Shown here: positions 4,314-31,975 of the stretch, one piece after another
Position numbering within the stretch: the stretch's first letter is position 1
Layout: each line of letters opens with the position of its first letter
Source of the DNA: Octopus sinensis
Taxonomy: Eukaryota
Direction of reading: 5' to 3'
DNA length: 32,129 nt
Assembly (NCBI RefSeq): GCF_006345805.1
Contig: NW_021829619.1
Span: forward strand, 1-32,129
Notes under the pieces: generated by a model
Told to the model about the DNA's origin: nothing
Database searches by the model: none
What the model saw: only the letters and a program-made list of their open reading frames with translations
Translations under genes and position numbers: made by a program

Positions 4314-5550
4314 GTGGGTAAGACTATCGAGGCTTACGAGGAGGTGGCAGGAGCAAAGATTAACCGGGAAAAGTCAGTCGGCTTGCAGCTCGGCACCTGG
4401 GTTGGCAAGTCGATGCCTTCAGACAGCTTTGTTGGGCGCTGGACGGAGGGACCGGTTAAGTTGCTGGTAGTTTGGTTTGGACGAGGCCTCCAGAGAGAGA
4501 AGAAATGGACGGAGGTATTGAGCAGGGTGGCTGCAGTAGTCAAGACCTGGCCTTGGCGATGGCTATCCCTGAAAGGGAGGGCGGAGGTGGCCAATATGTT
4601 TACCGCATCGGTCCTTACCTACCGCCTGACCGTCGTGTCCTGTCCGGATTCGTGGTTGATCAGGTTGGAGAGGCAGCTCTTTCGCTTTTTGTGGAAGGGC
4701 GGGTTACTACTTGTGAAACGCTCTGTCTGCTGTCAAAAGCCTTTAAAGGGAGGTTTAGGGATGCGTTGGTTAATGATGCGCAGACATGCGTTGAGGTTGA
4801 GGCACCTCTGGATTCTCCTGGATAGTGAACGGGTGTGGTCTCTGATGGCCAGACAAATGTTCCCCGAGTTCAAAAGTTTTTGCGAACAGGAAGCCTGGTG
4901 TTCTCGTAGACCGAGGTCGAGTGAGTGGTATAAAGAGTGCCGTAAGGCCCTCTTGCTATTCCGGCGCTCGGGCAACGCCAGCGGTGGGGGTTCCACAAAG
5001 ATTTTATATAGTGGGTTGGTAGAGTCTGAATGCTACGATGGCCTGGGGGTGACTCTAGGTCTCGGGTTTATTCAACTGGACAACCTGTTTCACCGTACAT
5101 TCGGGTTGAGAGCGTTGGACAACTTCAAAAAGTCCTCAATCTGGCAATGCTACAGAGGTGCCTTGTCCCTTTGGGTTAAAGCTCGCAAGACACGGTAAGC
5201 GTCAGTCACCGACCTGTCCAAGATGCGGGGTGGGGGAACAGTGAAACCGCCCCTCACGCTATTGTTCAGTGTCCGGAGATAACTGAAATGTGGCCTTATG
5301 CTGAACATCTGTTATCTGGCGAAGGAAGAGTACAGCTGTCGACTGAGTCAATTATTAGAATTGATCCACCGGGAGTTTTGATGAACGGAGGTAAGAAATG
5401 TTTTTTCACGGTTGTCGCAATAGCGAAAGAGGCAGTATTGAAGACAAGAAGAAAAGGAATTAAGACAGGCAACTTTATCTCTGGCCACAATTTACGATCA
5501 TTTTTTCTTTTCATTTGAAAAGGAAGCTGTGACTGGAGAAGAGATGTCTA
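4314..5550 (+). mobile_element. 5'-truncated, decayed Tx1/L1-clade ORF2 (RT C-terminal part plus Cys/His zinc finger)
   Basis: YEEVAGAKINREKS...VKLLxVWFG...LSLKGRAEVAN...LFRFLWKG...KGGLG (ORF 4314-5198), then frameshifted CPRCG...ETAPHAIVQCP (~5213-5275), typical of Tx1-type ORF2p. Confidence 0.9.
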
Positions 5551-6386: not shown

Positions 6387-6784
6387 AATCTTTTCTACTC
6401 TAGGCACTCAGATTCGAAATTTTGGGGAAGGGGCCAGTCGATTAGATCGAACCCAGTACATAACTGGTGCTTAATTTATCGACTCCTAAAGGATGAATGG
6501 CAAAGTCGACCTCGGCAGAATTTGAACTCAGAACGTAAAGACAGACGAAATACCTATTTCTTTACTACCCACAAGGGGCTAAACACAGAGAAGACAAACA
6601 AGGACAGACACAGATTAAGTCGATTATATCGACCCCACTGCGTAACTGGTACTTATTTAATCGACCCCGAAAGGATGAAAGGCTAAGTCGACCTCGGCGG
6701 AATTTGAACTCAGAACTTAGTCGCAGACGAAATACTGCTAAGCATTTCGCCCGGCGTGCTAACGTTTCTGCCAGCTCGCCTCCT
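6387..6784 (-). mobile_element. Dimeric SINE family 2: A-tail unit 6554-6784 fused to a headless B-tail unit 6387-6553
   Basis: Head GGCGAGCTGGCAGAAACGTTAGCACGCCGGGCG...GAGTTCAAATTC. The central CCTTTCATCCTTTCGGGGTCGA...GTACCAG resembles the Meta/Sauria-type central SINE domain. Both units share the body but have different tails. Confidence 0.85.
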
Positions 6785-7127
6785 TCACACACATTTATAT
6801 GCATGATTAATGAGAGAGACGAGAAATGGAAGATACAAGAATGTTCATTGATCACTACAATTGTTTTGACCCATCTAGCATTGATCCCCCAAGGCTGGGA
6901 TACTGAACAAATGGTTTAGAAGTATGTAGTCTGTGTAGATGTATCAGGTGATTAAAAGATGTATCTCGTTAAAATAGCGTCTGCCCCGCTAGTTTTCTTC
7001 CCGGTATGTATATGCAGAAGCATCAAATTAAGGGATACAGCTTCCAGTCTTTTGACCAAGAACAAGGTAATATCTATTCTTATCAGCTTATATATATATA
7101 TATATATAACCCTACCATTTATTGATC

Positions 7128-10311: not shown

Positions 10312-12054
10312 TTCGTTTGACGTCGGTCGTGTTTTTTTACGCTCTGTAAAATTCGGTAAAAAAGAACAAAAAGCGTGGTTGTTGTTGTGGAAATTCTGAA
10401 CGGCGTTGACGCGGTTTCGCGTTTCGCTCGTTCAGCGCGTTAAACTTTCTTCTGTTTTGGCGGCCGTTTTCGGTCTGTCAGACAGAAGGAAATGGACTAT
10501 GAGTCTCTAACAGACTTATCCACGACACAGATGAGGAACTGGAACGGCAATTGCAATGAAGCTGATGGAAGAAAAGCTGGAGTTTTCGAGTCTTATCAAG
10601 ACTCGCCTACGTCTGAAAGGAGCTAGAAATGGCAGCGAGGAATTTGGAAGAGAAGCTGAGTTATACCTATGCCGGTGTAACCAAGAAGGCGGAAGAGAAA
10701 GGGGTCGACATGGCCAAGTTGCCAAGTTACCAGAAATACATGAAAAAGGAAAGCGGTGAGGTGGAACTATCACCGACACCCAGGAGAAAAGAATGGTATG
10801 ATAAGAGGACCATTATTTACAGGGTGTTCGCAACGAAAGGAAGAGGGTAGAAGTTGTAACCATGGAATGGATAGAGGAAGCCCTGCGAAGAACTGAGGAG
10901 GAAATAAACTTTCTGACTCGAGGATCCAAGTACGTTACCGTAGTTGTGCATTTCAAAACTGAGTCTGCAGCGAGGAAGATGGCGCGAAGGCGGTGAAGTC
11001 GGAAAAGGTAACACTGTTACCTACGTATTTAAACAGGAGGATTACACGAATAAGGGTGGAGGGATGCCACCAAACGTGGAGGCAGAATGGATTGTGTGGC
11101 GGCTGTGATCAGCGGCCACGAGGACGAAGTGGATATTCTCCATGCCTCGGTTAAGTCCGAGGGCTGGAGAGGCGTAACAGTGGAGCTGAACGTACAGGCA
11201 GAGACCGAGGTACTGGTGGACCTGACGAAAGCATCAGAACTGGGAGAAGTGATCATGAGAGTGTGGGTGGAGGGCAGGGCTCCACGTTGTTACAAGTGTG
11301 GCCTGATGGGGGTCACATAAGAGCCTTCTGCCCTCCCCCAGGGAAAGAAATGGATCCCGAACCAGAGAGAGAGAAGCAGAAACCAGAGGAGAAGGAAACA
11401 GAGGAAGAGAATACACAGAAATGGAAGGAAGCTGGAAGTAAGAGGAAGAGAAGAATACGTGGAAAAGAAAATAATATGGAACTCCAATCCACCCCAAAAC
11501 CACCCACGCCCTCTGAGTCCCACCCTATCCATGCAGACATTGAACCCACCCGCTCCCCCCCAACAAGAAAACAAAAGAAAAAAAAGAATACCACACACAA
11601 GAGATTGAAATCGATATCAGGCCTACATTTGTACTATGACTGAACAGAAAGAAGTTAAAAGTCTAATGGAAGAGTATAAATGGTATGATGTTGGTGAGAC
11701 TAGGTATGCTGTGATTGAAAAGAAGAACATAGGTGACTTTATGGTGATGTGTGAATGCGAGAATTGGGAGGTGAAAGATATAAGAATGAGCGATGAATTC
11801 GTGGAAAATATGGATGAGTATTTCGGAGTAAGAATGGATATGGAATTTGTTCGTATTGGCAAGGAACATTCAAGTGACTATGAAAAACAAAGGACAGGTA
11901 AGTGATGCTGACGGACGGGGCCGTTGGTATCGCTTTCATTTAATCATTTTTTCGTTTAACAATTCATGTTCATAAAGTTTAATTATAATGTTATATGTCC
12001 CCATGTTTCTTAGTGTCCCTTTCTGTGTCGCCCCTAGTGGGTAATAAAGAAATA
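10306..12054 (+). mobile_element. Non-autonomous ORF1-only Tx1/L1-like retroelement (HAL1-like architecture), frameshifted
   Basis: Disrupted ORF ~10492-11905 with an RRM-like region and a zinc knuckle RVWVEGRAPRCYKCGLMG/HIRAFC (CX2CX4HX4C). No EN/RT coding follows. Ends in gcccctagtgggtaataaagaaata. TSD agaaacgt at 10298-10305 and 12055-12062. Confidence 0.8.
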
Positions 12055-12193
12055 AGAAACGTTAGCACGTCGGGCGAAATGTTTAGCGTTATTTCGTCTG
12101 TCTTTACGTTCTGTGTATAAATTTCGCCGAGGTCGACTTTGCCTTTCATCCATTAAGGGCCGATAAATTAAATAGCAGTTGCGTACTGGGGTC
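12055..12193 (+). mobile_element. Remainder of the interrupted SINE family 2 copy
   Basis: agaaacgttagcacgtcgggcgaaatg...gaggtcgactttgcctttcatcc...ctggggtc. Confidence 0.85.
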
Positions 12194-14569: not shown

Positions 14570-14776
14570 GTTTCAAATTTTTCCACAAGGGCAACAGCTT
14601 TGGGGGAGGGGTGAGTTGACTACATCGACCCCTGTGTTCAACTGGTACTTATTGCCCCCGAAAGGATGAAACGCAAAGTGAACCTCGGTGGAATTTGAAC
14701 TCAGAACATACCGACGAGCGAAATACTGCTAAGCATTTCGTCCAGCGTGCTAACGATTCTGCCAAGCTCGCCGCTT
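14568..14776 (-). mobile_element. SINE family 2 copy with a third tail type
   Basis: Same head and body as 6554-6784. Tail ends AAATTTGAAACCA followed by (TTA)n. Confidence 0.85.
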
Positions 14777-14841
14777 TAATGATGATGAATGATGATGACG
14801 ATAATAGTAATAATGATAACAACAACAACAACAACAACAAC

Positions 14842-16461: not shown

Positions 16462-16693
16462 TATTTCTTTACTACCCACAAGGGGCTAAACATAGAGGGG
16501 ACAAACAAGGACAGACATAGGTATTAAGTCGATTACATCGACCCCAGTGCGTAACTGGTACTTAATTTATCGACCCCGAAAGGATGAAAGGCAAAGTCGA
16601 CCTCGGCAGAATTTGAACTCAGAACGCAGCGGCGGACGAAATACCGCAAAGCATTTCGCCCGGCGTGCTAACGATTCTGCCAGCTCGCCGCCT
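16462..16693 (-). mobile_element. Full-length SINE family 2 (A tail) with a long TSD
   Basis: Complete head and tail. Direct repeat ctttggtctctatatatat at 16446-16464 and 16692-16710. Confidence 0.9.
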
Positions 16694-16770
16694 TTGGTCT
16701 CTATATATATGTGTGTGTGTATGAGTGTGTGTATATGTGTGTGTGTGTGTATGTGTGTGTGTGTGTGTGT

Positions 16771-17067: not shown

Positions 17068-17093
17068 TCAATATGTATGTATCGATGTATATA

Positions 17094-17335
17094 TTGGGTT
17101 GGTGCATAATTATTGCGGCGTTCTTTTACAACAAATTTTATTCAACAAAAACAATAACAATATTTAACAAAATCATCTTTAAATGACGGTCTGACCGCCT
17201 GCCAAGCAATTGGGAAGCAGTAATTGAAGTAGATGGTGAATATGCTCCGGAATAATCATTTAAAGATGTTTTTGTTACATGTTGTTATTGCTTTTGTTGA
17301 ATACAATTTGAAAAAAGCCACAATAATTATGCACC

Positions 17336-17338
<3 letters not shown>
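17094..17338. mobile_element. Mariner-derived MITE
   Basis: TA-flanked TIR ttgggttggtgcataattattgcggc and its complement at 17317-17338. The interior encodes a transposase C-terminus RLPSNWEAVIEVDGEYAPE*. A third TIR lies at 17416-17446. Confidence 0.8.
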
Positions 17339-17416
<78 letters not shown>

Positions 17417-17450
17417 TGGGTTGGTGCATAATTATTGCGGCTTTTTGTCA

Positions 17451-18350
17451 ATGCATGGAGCACAGCAATAAACTACCTTTTCTTGACATCGTAATTAAAA
17501 TAGTCAATAATCACATTGAAAAGGATATCTTTTATAAAGTCAGATTCAAAACAATACCTATTATTCAACTCATACCACCCCAAACACATAAAAATTAATA
17601 TACCTGATAATCTTGCGAAAAGAACCGGTACCATAGTGTCGGATACCAATACACGTGAACAAAGACTTCCTGAACTTAAATCAACACTAATCATGAGACA
17701 TTAATAGATGATGGGATCAAACGAGTAAGAAAGTAGACATACAAACATTAAGGGATTTAAAAGTACTTCCCTACATCTCCACAAACAACCCAAGAAACAA
17801 TGAGGCATTCAACATCCTCATCCAAAATCTACCCATTCTCGCTAGAGATAAAACAATGAACGAAATTTTGGGTACACACAAATTTATCAAAAGCAAAATA
17901 CAACCGAAATCATTGAAAAGAATATTAACCGACGCAAAACTATAACCCTTAACAACGGAACCAAAAGTGGAGGAATGCCGGCCTCCTAACTGTGACATAT
18001 GCTCCCACTTTTTGGAGAGTTCAGAATTTCACTTCAAACAAGACAAAATATTTAAGATAAAGTCAAATTTCACTTGTGCCTCTGAAAACTTAATCTATGT
18101 TATTACTTGCTTAGATTGAGGAAACCACCATATAGACCAAAGACAGATGTCTCCCAGACGAAGAACAACACTTCACAAGGAACAAATCCACTTCTCACAA
18201 TATAGACAAATATTGATAAATGTGCTAGGAACCTCGAACCAAACTTCCTAATCGTTCTTCTTTTCAATGTTCCCAGGAACCTCAATGCAGCAAAGATTAA
18301 ATAGAGGAAACTTCTATTGATAAATATCAACCACAAATTTATATGAACAT
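17451..18350 (+). mobile_element. Decayed Penelope-like element (RT thumb plus GIY-YIG endonuclease)
   Basis: LPFLDI...DIFYK/SDSKQYLLFNSYHPKHIKINIPDNLAKR...LPYISTNNPRN...CRPPNCDIC...FTCASENLIYVITC. Confidence 0.85.
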
Positions 18351-18941
18351 ACAACTCAATACAGGACACTTCTGACCTTACTAATATCAATAATCCCACT
18401 AATCCTCATATATCCCAAATGCTACTTTATATTCTAGTGATTGTATCTACATTAATTACATCTCTTTCATAACTGCTTACTTCGCTTGCATCAAAAATTT
18501 TTTTTCACTTAGGTGTATGTTTATACCCAACACCGCTTGACAACCGGTGTTGATTCACAGTCAGTGACCATCTATAGCGAAAACCAGCATGACTTTTTAT
18601 AATGATTTTTATACATCTTAATATAACTTCAACTCATTTGTTTGTAAATATATTTGTCTTTGAAAAAAGCCATTACATTCATACCTAGAGAGCATTTTCT
18701 TTATTTGTTTTTACTTTTCATTTAATTACGCCACGTGTAGTTTCCCCCCTTAAAACCTGTTTCAATTATATATATATATATATATACATATACTGTAAAT
18801 ATCACTAAATGTAACTAAGGTGTTAGGAAATACCTACATTGCTATGAATAAGAGCTAAACTGTTCTAATATTGTAGTTAACGGACACGAATAAAAGCATA
18901 TACACTAACAGGGACCATAATTGCCCGAAAACTGCCTAGTG

Positions 18942-19006
18942 GTCTCAACTGACGAGGCAACGAAAATGACCGAAACTGACGCGTCAGTATCAAAAGTTCT
19001 CGATCG
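18942..19006 (+). ncRNA. Type I hammerhead ribozyme, partly decayed copy
   Basis: CUGACGA-GGCAACGAAAAUGACC-GAAA-CUGAC GC GUCAG-UA (predicted cleavage after 18989). Core is intact; stems I and II are mismatched. Confidence 0.6.
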
Positions 19007-19288
19007 GCACTTTTCGGACGATTATGGTCCCTGTCAGTGTATGTGGTCATTCGTGTGCGTTAACTAGAGCAGTAGAGCGTTTTAGCTCTTATTTCTAGCA
19101 ATGTAAGTGTTTCCTAATACCCTAGTCACATTTAGTGAAATTTGTACTTCTCCTTTTTGTTGAAACATTGCAAACTGGTGTTTATATGAATTTTATATAT
19201 ACACATTGGCGAATCGCTAAATCACCCAATTATTTGGATGACGGAAACATAAATACTAATGGCGAAGCAACTACGGAAAGAGTCGGAC

Positions 19289-19361
19289 GATCGAGCTGTC
19301 TAAACTGATGAGGCAGCGGAAATTGCCGAAACTGATGTGTCAGTATTAAGAATTCTTGATC
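19289..19361 (+). ncRNA. Type I hammerhead ribozyme
   Basis: Canonical core CUGAUGA (19305-19311); stem II GGCAG/UUGCC; GAAA; stem III ACUGA/UCAGU; GUA site (after 19345); stem I ucuaaa/uuaaga (one mismatch) plus distal gaucgag/cuugauc. Confidence 0.8.
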
Positions 19362-20004
19362 AACACTTTTCGGACGATTATTGTCCCTGATAGTGTATAT
19401 GTTTTCATTCATGTGCGTTAACCACAACGTTAGAGCGGTTTTTCTCAAGCAATGTAGGTGTTTCCTAATACCCTAGTGACATTTAGTGACACTTGTAACT
19501 TTCCTTTCTGTTGAAACATTGCAAACTGGTGTTTATATCAGTTTTATATATAAGTGGACAAACGAAAGAAGGGCACTCAATATTGGGAGTTACATGTATG
19601 GATCAAAGCAGATTTTGTTTGTTTGTTTGTTTGTTTGTTTGTTTGTTTGTTTGTATGTATGTATGTATGTATGTATGTATGTATGCATGCATGTACGTAT
19701 GTACGTATGTACGTATTATGTATGTATGTATGTATGTATAAATAATTTTAAATGTGAATGTATTCGTTTCGCAAAATCATGGTCTCTCTATTCTGTTCGA
19801 CGTTTCTTTTATTTACTTTTTGTTTTTAATATATATATATATGTGTATATATATGTATACGTACATATGCGTGCGTGTAGGGGAAAGGTAAAGACCTATA
19901 TGTGCTTATCAGATATATATATAACCATTATAGATCTATATATGCAGAGACACGCATATCTATTTACAGAGATATCTATCTGTCTATCTATCTATCTATC
20001 TATA

Positions 20005-22232: not shown

Positions 22233-22425
22233 CCTCTAATATAGACACATAGCTTGAAATTTTGGGGGATGGGCTAGTCCTTTACATCAGCCCCCAGTGC
22301 TCAACTGGTACTTGTTTTATCGACTCCAAAAGGACGAAAAGCAAAGTCGACCTCGGCAGAATTCGAACTCAGAACGTAGCGACGGACGAGATGCCACTAA
22401 GCATTTTGTCCGATGATAATGTTTC
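22233..22425 (-). mobile_element. SINE family 2 copy lacking the first ~15 nt of its head
   Basis: Body matches the other SINE2 copies. The 5' boundary is at GAAACATTA. Confidence 0.8.
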
Positions 22426-31343: not shown

Positions 31344-31864
31344 GAGGGGAGCAGTCGATTAGATCGACCCCAGTACGCAACTGGTATTTAATTTATCGAC
31401 TCCGAAAGGATGAAAGGCAAAGTCGACCTCGGCGGAATTTGAACTCAGAACGTAAAGACAGACGAAATACTACTAGCATTCTTTTCTACTCAAGGCACAA
31501 GGACCGCAATTTTTGGGGAGGGGGAGCAATCGATTAGATCAACCTCAGTACGCAACTGGTATTTAATTTATCGACCCCGAAAGGATGAAAGGCAAAGTCG
31601 AATTTGAACTCAGAACGCAAAGACAGACGAAATACCTATTTCTTACTACCCACAAGGCTAAACGCAGAGAGGACAAACAAGGACAGACAAACAGATTAAG
31701 TCGATTATATGGACCCCAGTGCGTAACTGGTACTTATTTAATCGACCCCGGAAGGATAAAAGGCAAAGTCGACCTCGGCGGAATTTGAACTCAGAACGTA
31801 ACCGCAGACGAAATACCACTAAGCATTCGCCCGGCGTGCTAACGTTTCTACCAGCTCACCGCCT
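31344..31864 (-). mobile_element. Trimeric SINE family 2 array (units 31636-31864, 31478-31635, 31344-31477)
   Basis: Three consecutive bodies; only the first on the minus strand has a head. The A/B junction is identical to that at 6553/6554. Confidence 0.85.
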
Positions 31865-31975
31865 TTCAGATGCTCATAATTACGAAGCGAACTTCTTAAA
31901 CACACAGCCATAGCTTTACTGGCATTCACAGTAAAATCAAGCCAGCAACGACAACGAAAACATCAACAGCTACTA

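What the first reader, a model, noticed from the sequence alone, without database searches (positions are those of the whole stretch)
18942..19551. 356-nt tandem unit bounded by type I hammerhead ribozymes: a candidate retrozyme / circular-RNA-producing element
Seen: two direct copies each carry CUGANGA-stem II-GAAA-stem III-GUA, with predicted cleavage after 18989 and 19345 (356 nt apart). Copy 2 has a canonical core and all three stems. Copy 1 keeps the core and a perfect palindromic stem III (ACUGACGCGUCAGU), but its stems I and II have decayed. A released monomer would have ends able to pair (gaucgag at 19289 with cucgauc at 18999). Known: metazoan non-LTR retrozymes are non-coding tandem units of a few hundred nt with type I hammerheads that yield circRNAs, and PLE pseudo-LTRs also carry hammerheads. 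A PLE fragment on the same strand lies ~450 bp upstream. Inference: this is a cephalopod retrozyme family or the pseudo-LTR of a PLE.
Basis: partly seen in the sequence, partly recalled or inferred. Interest (0 to 1): 0.82.

Follow-up and report, generated by a model that had tools for sequence, protein, structure and literature searches.

The report
Fossil retrozyme with dimer-type hammerhead ribozyme
This is an old, broken copy of a repeated, protein-free element whose units each carry a hammerhead (self-cutting RNA) motif and which was likely pasted in by a Penelope-type retrotransposon; the intact family sequence is predicted to lock its own cutting site when single and to open it in pairs, which would explain how such RNA circles avoid cutting themselves.

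Summary
The two hammerhead cores, 356 nt apart, are real and beyond chance. The unit is a repeat family: hundreds of contigs in each of four DNA-type runs, with head-to-tail units and no ORF seen. Family-majority letters make all five imperfect pairs of copy 2 Watson-Crick; no core letter varies at 20%; no compensatory change was seen. This locus is decayed: copy 1 cannot fold, copy 2 misfolds. The upstream PLE fragment looks like a separate insertion. The unusual part is helix III, a 14-nt palindrome whose 5' arm repeats the core. With majority letters, monomer and circle are predicted self-blocked (3 of 4 energy sets), while tandems fold into a double hammerhead. Cleavage, circles and expression are untested. 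Non-LTR retrozymes are a known class, and this scan has noted other families with this footprint on other DNA of this genome. Verdict: a variant of a known kind, moderate interest.

The parts
18767..18792 (.). (TA)10 plus CATATA: left target microsatellite, 4 nt from the end of the inverted arm
   Evidence: sequence
18797..18936 (-). Inverted partial copy of the unit (equals 19006-19143), head-to-head with copy 1; it begins right after the distal stem I strand and holds no hammerhead
   Evidence: (I1, I2), 9, 34: 23 and 26 differences in 131 columns to copies 1 and 2
18942..19201 (+). Copy 1 of the repeated (pseudo-LTR-like) part of the unit
   Evidence: 81.7% to copy 2
18943..18995 (+). Hammerhead copy 1: core intact, stems I (3/6) and II (3/5) broken; site after 18989; predicted dead
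18975..18988 (+). Perfect 14-nt palindrome: helix III (5 bp + CGCG loop as monomer, 14-bp duplex as dimer)
18990..19345 (+). 356-nt site-to-site monomer, 39.6% GC, no ORF of 100 aa or more; circular fold z = -2.2 (1 of 60 shuffles as stable)
19202..19297 (+). 96-nt spacer, present once here but part of the family unit (joins the end of one unit to the next hammerhead)
19289..19361 (+). Hammerhead copy 2 (type I): distal stem 7 bp, stem I 6 bp with one mismatch, stem II 5 bp, helix III 5 bp; site after 19345; predicted misfolded at this locus
19298..19552 (+). Copy 2 of the repeated part; ends in the unit's internal TATATATA (19545-19552), which cannot be told apart from a target (TA)n
17440..18340 (+). 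Neighbour, likely a separate insertion: 5'-truncated, broken PLE ORF (end of RT region, CX2-5CxxC linker, C-terminal GIY-YIG nuclease)

Best explanation
This is an old, decayed insertion of a repeated, protein-free element of about 356-358 nt with one type I hammerhead motif per unit, likely copied into a (TA)n microsatellite by a borrowed Penelope-like (PLE) reverse transcriptase-nuclease as two head-to-head arms. Shown: the three arms, the TA ends, the repeat family, intact stems in the family majority, and no coding homology. Inferred steps: (1) a tandem master copy is transcribed; (2) two neighbouring hammerheads pair through the 14-nt palindrome and cut as a double hammerhead (predicted), releasing a unit-length RNA whose ends are held together by stem I; (3) a host ligase such as RtcB likely closes the circle (by analogy with mussel and axolotl), and in the circle the 3' arm of helix III is predicted to pair with the core and block re-cutting; (4) a PLE protein cuts AT-rich DNA and extends both broken ends on this RNA. 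The right arm crosses the cleavage site twice, so its template was not a cut linear monomer: a circle is likelier, an uncut multimer is possible. Since then each arm has drifted by about 6-10%, and this locus is likely inactive.
For: Footprint: an inverted truncated copy next to direct copies, ending in (TA)n, matches the PLE structure and the (TA)n bias described in PMC8557442 (passages). A purified PLE protein cuts and extends both strands of AT-rich DNA (PMC11167929). Family: 351, 389 and 477 contigs lie on a 205-nt stretch in three DNA-type runs of three coded organisms. No letter of the core, of GAAA, of the cleavage site or of the 3' strand of stem I varies at 20%. Majority letters at 19302 (90-98% of depth), 19316 (93-97%), 19336 (74-77%), 19338 (56-82%) and 19357 (73-79%) turn all 5 imperfect pairs of copy 2 into Watson-Crick pairs. 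ORF-less tandem order: 24 of 24 listed DNA contigs bridge spacer and hammerhead (these are the longest of 1217 laid, so selected). Five listed contigs in three runs, each with 31-64 differing letters, bridge unit end, spacer and next hammerhead, one from hammerhead to hammerhead (records 7, 14, 21, 23, 24). The best loose ends lead back into the unit. tblastn of 150 PLE-type proteins on 18780-19600 gives best E 2.0. The three arms differ like a star: 13, 8 and 11 private changes in 131 columns. Dimer fold: palindrome duplex 0.99, both cores open 0.93-0.94.
Against: No compensatory base change was seen at the 20% level. 19289 G>A (36-65%) lacks a matching partner change (2-8%), and 19299 T>G (20-32%) breaks the outer pair of stem I. 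Only 24 of 349 loose-end rows and 15 of 27 joints were shown, so ORF-linked copies could be hidden. One contig in one run joins 18610 to 19076 with a 24-letter side. No target-site duplication can be told. The star pattern fits three family copies as well as one event, and copies 1 and 2 share no non-majority letter over 69 positions, so a single template is not shown. In PMC11167929 hammerhead cleavage was not needed for insertion and uncut RNA was the main template. In the 2026 preprint 8 of 9 predicted Xenopus dimers did not cleave. One of four energy sets does not give the self-block. Rfam score is below the gathering threshold.
Confidence: 0.72

Rival explanations
1. The arms are leftover pseudo-LTRs of an autonomous PLE whose ORF-bearing copies lie elsewhere; this is an ordinary 5'-truncated PLE insertion.
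For: Same footprint. The codons CTT AAC TGA (L-N-stop) overlap stem I and the core in the family majority, and 60 of 150 related PLE-type proteins have PxLN near their end, though only 3 end in LN. Most loose ends were not shown.
Against: Other copies join unit end, 96-nt spacer and next hammerhead with no ORF between. No coding homology in the unit. The P of PxLN is absent in the spacer frame.
Confidence: 0.15
2. A single inserted unit was duplicated and inverted in place at the DNA level (satellite-style growth), and the hammerhead is a passenger.
For: The 2026 preprint proposes local amplification of PLE ends. No cleavage or circle is shown here.
Against: All three arms are about equally far from each other, both outer ends lie in TA runs, and head-to-tail dimers recur in other copies and organisms. 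Perfect stems in the majority point to a working ribozyme in the master copy.
Confidence: 0.08
3. The repeat is the 3' pseudo-LTR of the PLE fragment at 17440-18340.
For: Same strand, close by; one contig joins 18610 to 19076.
Against: No DNA similarity between 18400-18780 and the unit. Summed depth falls to 75, 17 and 253 at 18675-18749 in three runs. That PLE has its own inverted joint 18303/18592 in three runs. The inverted arm and a (TA)n lie between them.
Confidence: 0.04

Closest known systems
Metazoan non-LTR retrozymes (Cervera and de la Pena 2020, PMC7229834), above all the 350-390-bp Mytilus family
   Same: Non-coding tandem unit of a few hundred nt, GC under 45%, one type I hammerhead per unit, PLEs in the same genome.
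   Different: Helix III is 5 bp with a 14-nt palindrome, against 1-2 bp plus a tetraloop in the text I read; the mussel figure is in a supplement I could not read. The circle is predicted self-blocked, whereas most described circles leave the ribozyme free. Cleavage and circles are not shown here.
Animal retrozymes as non-autonomous PLE sequences (Li, Clavereau, Pollet 2026, bioRxiv 10.64898/2026.07.22.740005)
   Same: Unit length in range; link to PLE pseudo-LTRs.
   Different: That survey covers 31 vertebrates, three insects and one anthozoan, and argues from phylogeny. Here the link is the insertion footprint, and no parent PLE was found. This locus fails their 'active' criterion of two complete hammerheads.
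PLE pseudo-LTRs with hammerheads (Cervera and de la Pena 2014, PMC4209133; Craig et al. 2021, PMC8557442)
   Same: Partial tandem plus inverted truncated copy, (TA)n target, palindromic helix III, dimer logic.
   Different: No ORF between the repeats. The hammerhead is full-size (stem I 6 bp plus a distal helix), not the minimal metazoan PLE form. A large helix III was described for fungal and protist PLEs, where the tested one works as a monomer.
Double hammerhead of newt and axolotl satellite 2 (Forster 1988, as cited in PMC4209133 and PMC7229834; original not read)
   Same: Two ribozymes pair through palindromic helix III and cut each other's site.
   Different: There the monomer is weak because helix III is too short. 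Here it is long, and is predicted to be diverted onto the core.

Membership tests
Type I hammerhead ribozyme | Core CUGANGA, GAAA, UH with G10.1-C11.1 | tested here: met
   Both copies; no variant at 20% in three DNA-type runs
Type I hammerhead ribozyme | Three helices, helix I open | tested here: met
   Family majority 6/6, 5/5, 5/5 Watson-Crick; copy 2 5/6, 4/5, 5/5; copy 1 fails with 3/6 and 3/5
Type I hammerhead ribozyme | Rfam gathering score | tested here: not met
   25.6 bits against 48.5 for RF00008, a type III model
Type I hammerhead ribozyme | Covariation in the stems | tested here: inconclusive
   No compensatory pair at 20%; per-position counts only, no alignment of copies
Type I hammerhead ribozyme | Self-cleavage at UH | not testable with these tools
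   Needs an in vitro assay
Non-LTR retrozyme | Head-to-tail units of about 150-450 bp, one hammerhead each | tested here: met
   356 nt; 1.7 units here; other tandem junctions
Non-LTR retrozyme | No protein coding, GC under 45-50% | tested here: met
   No ORF of 100 aa within the monomer; tblastn best E 2.0; GC 39.6%
Non-LTR retrozyme | Repeated in the genome | tested here: met
   351, 389, 477 contigs in three runs; not a copy number
Non-LTR retrozyme | Two consecutive complete hammerheads at the locus ('active' by Li et al.) | tested here: not met
   Copy 1 cannot fold: the locus is a decayed member, not an active one
Non-LTR retrozyme | Expressed as unit-length linear and circular RNA | not testable with these tools
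   Only contigs were available; they cannot show RNA ends or circles
PLE insertion (footprint) | Partial tandem plus inverted truncated copy | tested here: met
   against PMC8557442
PLE insertion (footprint) | (TA)n target | tested here: met
   18767-18792 and 19545-19552; the right run is also part of the unit
PLE insertion (footprint) | Fixed end points with a 30-40-bp tail | tested here: inconclusive
   The two arms end about 58 nt apart in the unit (equivalents of 19143 and 19201); one locus only
Autonomous PLE (pseudo-LTR of) | RT and GIY-YIG ORF between or next to the repeats | tested here: not met
   96-nt spacer only; the upstream ORF is unlinked; unseen copies may differ

The most novel reading that the evidence does not exclude
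This family uses a self-locking hammerhead. The 5' arm of helix III repeats the A-CUGA of the catalytic core, so in a single unit or circle the 3' arm pairs with the core and switches it off, while in a tandem transcript the 14-nt palindromes pair with each other and free both cores. This would be a self-contained on/off switch for making stable circular RNA in an animal retrozyme, by self-pairing, where the 2020 paper had to invoke an unknown blocking mechanism.
Probability: 0.3. Interest if true: 0.65.

Novelty: new variant of a known kind. Interest (0 to 1): 0.45.

Why it matters
The class is known and this copy is a fossil, so the locus alone matters little. Two things lift it. First, its insertion footprint ties an ORF-less hammerhead repeat to Penelope-type enzymes, a link so far argued from co-occurrence and phylogeny in the papers I read. 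Second, Cervera and de la Pena left open how animal retrozyme circles avoid cutting themselves. This family gives a concrete answer that an 80-nt monomer, a dimer and two mutants can test. If it holds, it is also a compact natural design for making circular RNA that does not reopen. 'Variant' rests on the helix III anatomy, which is shown; its function is only predicted.

Tried and rejected
No genome is held for this window, so there was no genome-wide BLAST, no alignment of copies and no covariance model. A 31-letter core pattern found 0 matches in metagenome and viral contigs. No RNA holder was listed among 24 runs. Two runs guessed to be RNA held 53 and 19 contigs on the stretches laid, but contigs show no ends, strand or level, and DNA may be in them: no evidence either way. 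Pfam gave nothing relevant on five short stop-free pieces of the PLE fragment, and a word-based search with one piece found no relative; the HMMER search read through stops with X worked. That both cores are intact despite about 10% drift has P 0.15 and 0.19: weak, and biased because the locus was picked for its cores. The L-N-stop overlap as a remnant of a PLE ORF end was considered and given little weight. No CUGANGA with at most one mismatch lies on the + strand of 18300-18780. In one search three alternative energy sets gave identical numbers, a loading fault; I reran them separately and use only those. Two short motifs were absent from the supplement of PMC8557442. The supplement of PMC7229834 could not be read, and bioRxiv supplements are closed; both may show similar hammerheads. 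The microRNA hits are microsatellite artefacts. No earlier scan note matched this sequence or the self-block words.

Full report
1. Observation. The two direct copies (18942-19201, 19298-19552) are 81.7% identical over 262 columns. Each has CUGANGA, stem II, GAAA, helix III and GUA, with predicted sites after 18989 and 19345. A descriptor scan finds only these two cores in the window. In 200 dinucleotide shuffles it found no copy-2-like hit and 0.035 copy-1-like hits per window. Rfam gives a sub-threshold hammerhead hit on copy 2 only (25.6 bits against 48.5, E 0.0054).

2. A third partial copy lies inverted at 18797-18936, head-to-head with copy 1. It equals unit positions 19006-19143 and starts right after the distal stem I strand. 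Over 131 shared columns the three arms have 13, 8 and 11 private changes, so they are about equally old. The inverted arm ends 4 nt from a (TA)10 tract; copy 2 ends in TATATATA. Partial tandems with an inverted truncated copy and a (TA)n bias are the described shape of PLE insertions (PMC8557442, passages).

3. The family. No genome was available, so I used contigs of public runs. Twenty of 24 listed runs, from 12 studies, hold a part of the stretch, each with a share of 0.25 or less; I laid 6 of them. On 19196-19400, three DNA-type runs of three coded organisms gave 351, 389 and 477 contigs. At the 20% level no letter varies in the core, in GAAA, at the cleavage site or in the 3' strand of stem I. 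Where copy 2 differs from the majority inside the helices (19302, 19316, 19336, 19338, 19357), the majority letter restores a Watson-Crick pair in 5 of 5 cases. A minor variant lacking two central letters keeps helix III a palindrome (2-7% of depth). Against: no compensatory change was seen; the outermost distal pair (19289) and the outer pair of stem I (19299) vary without partners; clipped alignments will understate variation.

4. ORF-less or pseudo-LTR? All 24 listed DNA contigs bridge spacer and hammerhead, but they are the longest of 1217 laid. In one search, five listed contigs from three runs, with 31-64 differing letters, bridge the end of one unit, the spacer and the next hammerhead; one runs from hammerhead to hammerhead. 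The best loose ends lead back into the unit (24 of 349 rows shown). The 150 best relatives of the upstream ORF find nothing in 18780-19600 (best E 2.0). So the visible copies are ORF-less tandems; ORF-linked copies may exist unseen, and no parent PLE was found.

5. The upstream PLE. Read through with X, 17757-18251 finds 825 proteins at E up to 0.001. Of 8 scanned, 7 have GIY-YIG and 5 have RVT_1; all 14 long ones have a CX2-5CxxC linker. This is the Neptune/Nematis architecture; I built no tree. It shares no DNA with the unit, is parted from it by low-depth DNA at 18675-18749, and has its own inverted joint at 18303/18592 in three runs. One weak contig links 18610 to 19076. I read it as a separate insertion, of a type that could supply the enzyme.

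6. State of this locus. Copy 1 has 3 of 6 pairs in stem I and 3 of 5 in stem II, and cannot form the ribozyme. Copy 2's ribozyme fold lies 5.1 kcal/mol above its best fold, 7.4 in a wider context. In the genomic dimer the palindromes pair, but stem I forms on neither side. The locus is likely inactive.

7. How the intact element likely works. With majority letters put in, the single hammerhead is still predicted not to fold: the 3' arm of helix III (19340-44) pairs with 19304-08, because the 5' arm (19331-35) repeats those five letters. Helix III has probability 0.006, the lowest of 64 palindrome-keeping variants, 58 of which exceed 0.5. Two hammerheads in tandem form a full double hammerhead: 14-bp duplex 0.99, crossed stems I 0.9, cores open 0.93-0.94; the circle stays blocked at 0.93. 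Across four energy sets the block is 0.93, 0.78, 0.89 and 0.13; the natural sequence ranks lowest in three and second lowest in one; the dimer core is open in all four. Caveats: the gap is only 2.6-2.9 kcal/mol, Mg2+ and tertiary contacts are not modelled, the 1-in-64 match was noticed after the fact, and the repeat could be a neutral short duplication. The remaining steps are inferred: ligation by a host ligase, as shown for axolotl and mussel, and copying by a PLE protein that extends both strands at an AT-rich cut. The right arm crosses the cleavage site twice, which excludes a cut linear monomer as template but not an uncut multimer; that paper found uncut RNA to be the main template.

8. 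Comparison. It works like a non-LTR retrozyme and meets the structural criteria, but expression and circles are untested, and this locus fails the 'two complete hammerheads' criterion. It has the PLE footprint but no ORF. Described metazoan helices III are 1-2 bp with a short palindromic loop; here it is 5 bp within a 14-nt palindrome. Six library searches listed no paper on a cephalopod hammerhead repeat or on this self-block, and a 2026 octopus repeat annotation does not mention ribozymes; the library lacks most subscription papers. What I read: PMC8557442 passages and one supplement search; PMC7229834 passages, supplement unreadable; PMC4209133 and PMC11167929 parts 1-2 of 4; the 2026 preprint parts 1-3 of 5, supplements closed; PMC13282606 passages. 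Hammerhead position numbers are recalled convention.

9. Earlier scan notes. Several other hammerhead repeat families with two arms in (TA)n were noted on other DNA of this genome. They are unchecked leads and not support; none matched this sequence. I had recorded the inverted arm and TA ends before reading them. The reading 'primed from both broken ends' is reused from them. The octopus label comes from them and was not tested.

10. Verdict. A real but fossil insertion of an ORF-less, likely PLE-mobilised hammerhead repeat: confidence 0.72, interest 0.45. The self-locking hammerhead is the bold reading: probability 0.3, interest 0.65 if true.

Noticed in passing
window 18537-18592: Possible decayed hammerhead of the upstream PLE: TTGACAA (two transitions from CTGACGA) at 18537-43 and CGAAA at 18578-82. 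Summed depth peaks in this bin, and an inverted joint 18303/18592 recurs in three runs.
   Followed up: partly
window 17093-17338 and 17415-17444: A MITE-like element of about 245 bp with 30-bp terminal inverted repeats and an inner 55-bp inverted repeat, then a third copy of the terminus just before the PLE fragment. A likeness to mariner-type ends is recalled, not tested.
   Followed up: no
window 18930-18945 and 18999-19006: The inversion break lies at the distal helix of stem I: the inverted arm starts right after its 3' strand, and copy 1 starts just after where its 5' strand would be. This hints at a template switch at that helix; one event only.
   Followed up: partly
window 19296-19307: In the family majority, L-N-stop codons overlap stem I and the core; a minor variant joint reads N-G-L-N-stop (table 5c). 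It could be a remnant of a PLE ORF end.
   Followed up: partly
window 6389-6785, 12055-12193, 14614-14777, 16462-16695, 22235-22425, 31344-31866: Many copies of a dispersed SINE-like repeat, some in tandem, 75-91% alike.
   Followed up: no
window 4314-5198 and 11155-11643: A 294-codon frame that reads like the 3' part of an L1/Tx1-type reverse transcriptase, and a frame with a zinc-knuckle-like stretch; both labels are recalled, not tested.
   Followed up: no
window 18797-19143: A transcript through the locus would form a long hairpin between the inverted arm and copy 1 (-80 kcal/mol for 18884-19064): a possible double-stranded RNA or editing substrate.
   Followed up: no
window 19575-19640: Another high-depth repeat begins about 20 nt after copy 2.
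   Followed up: no
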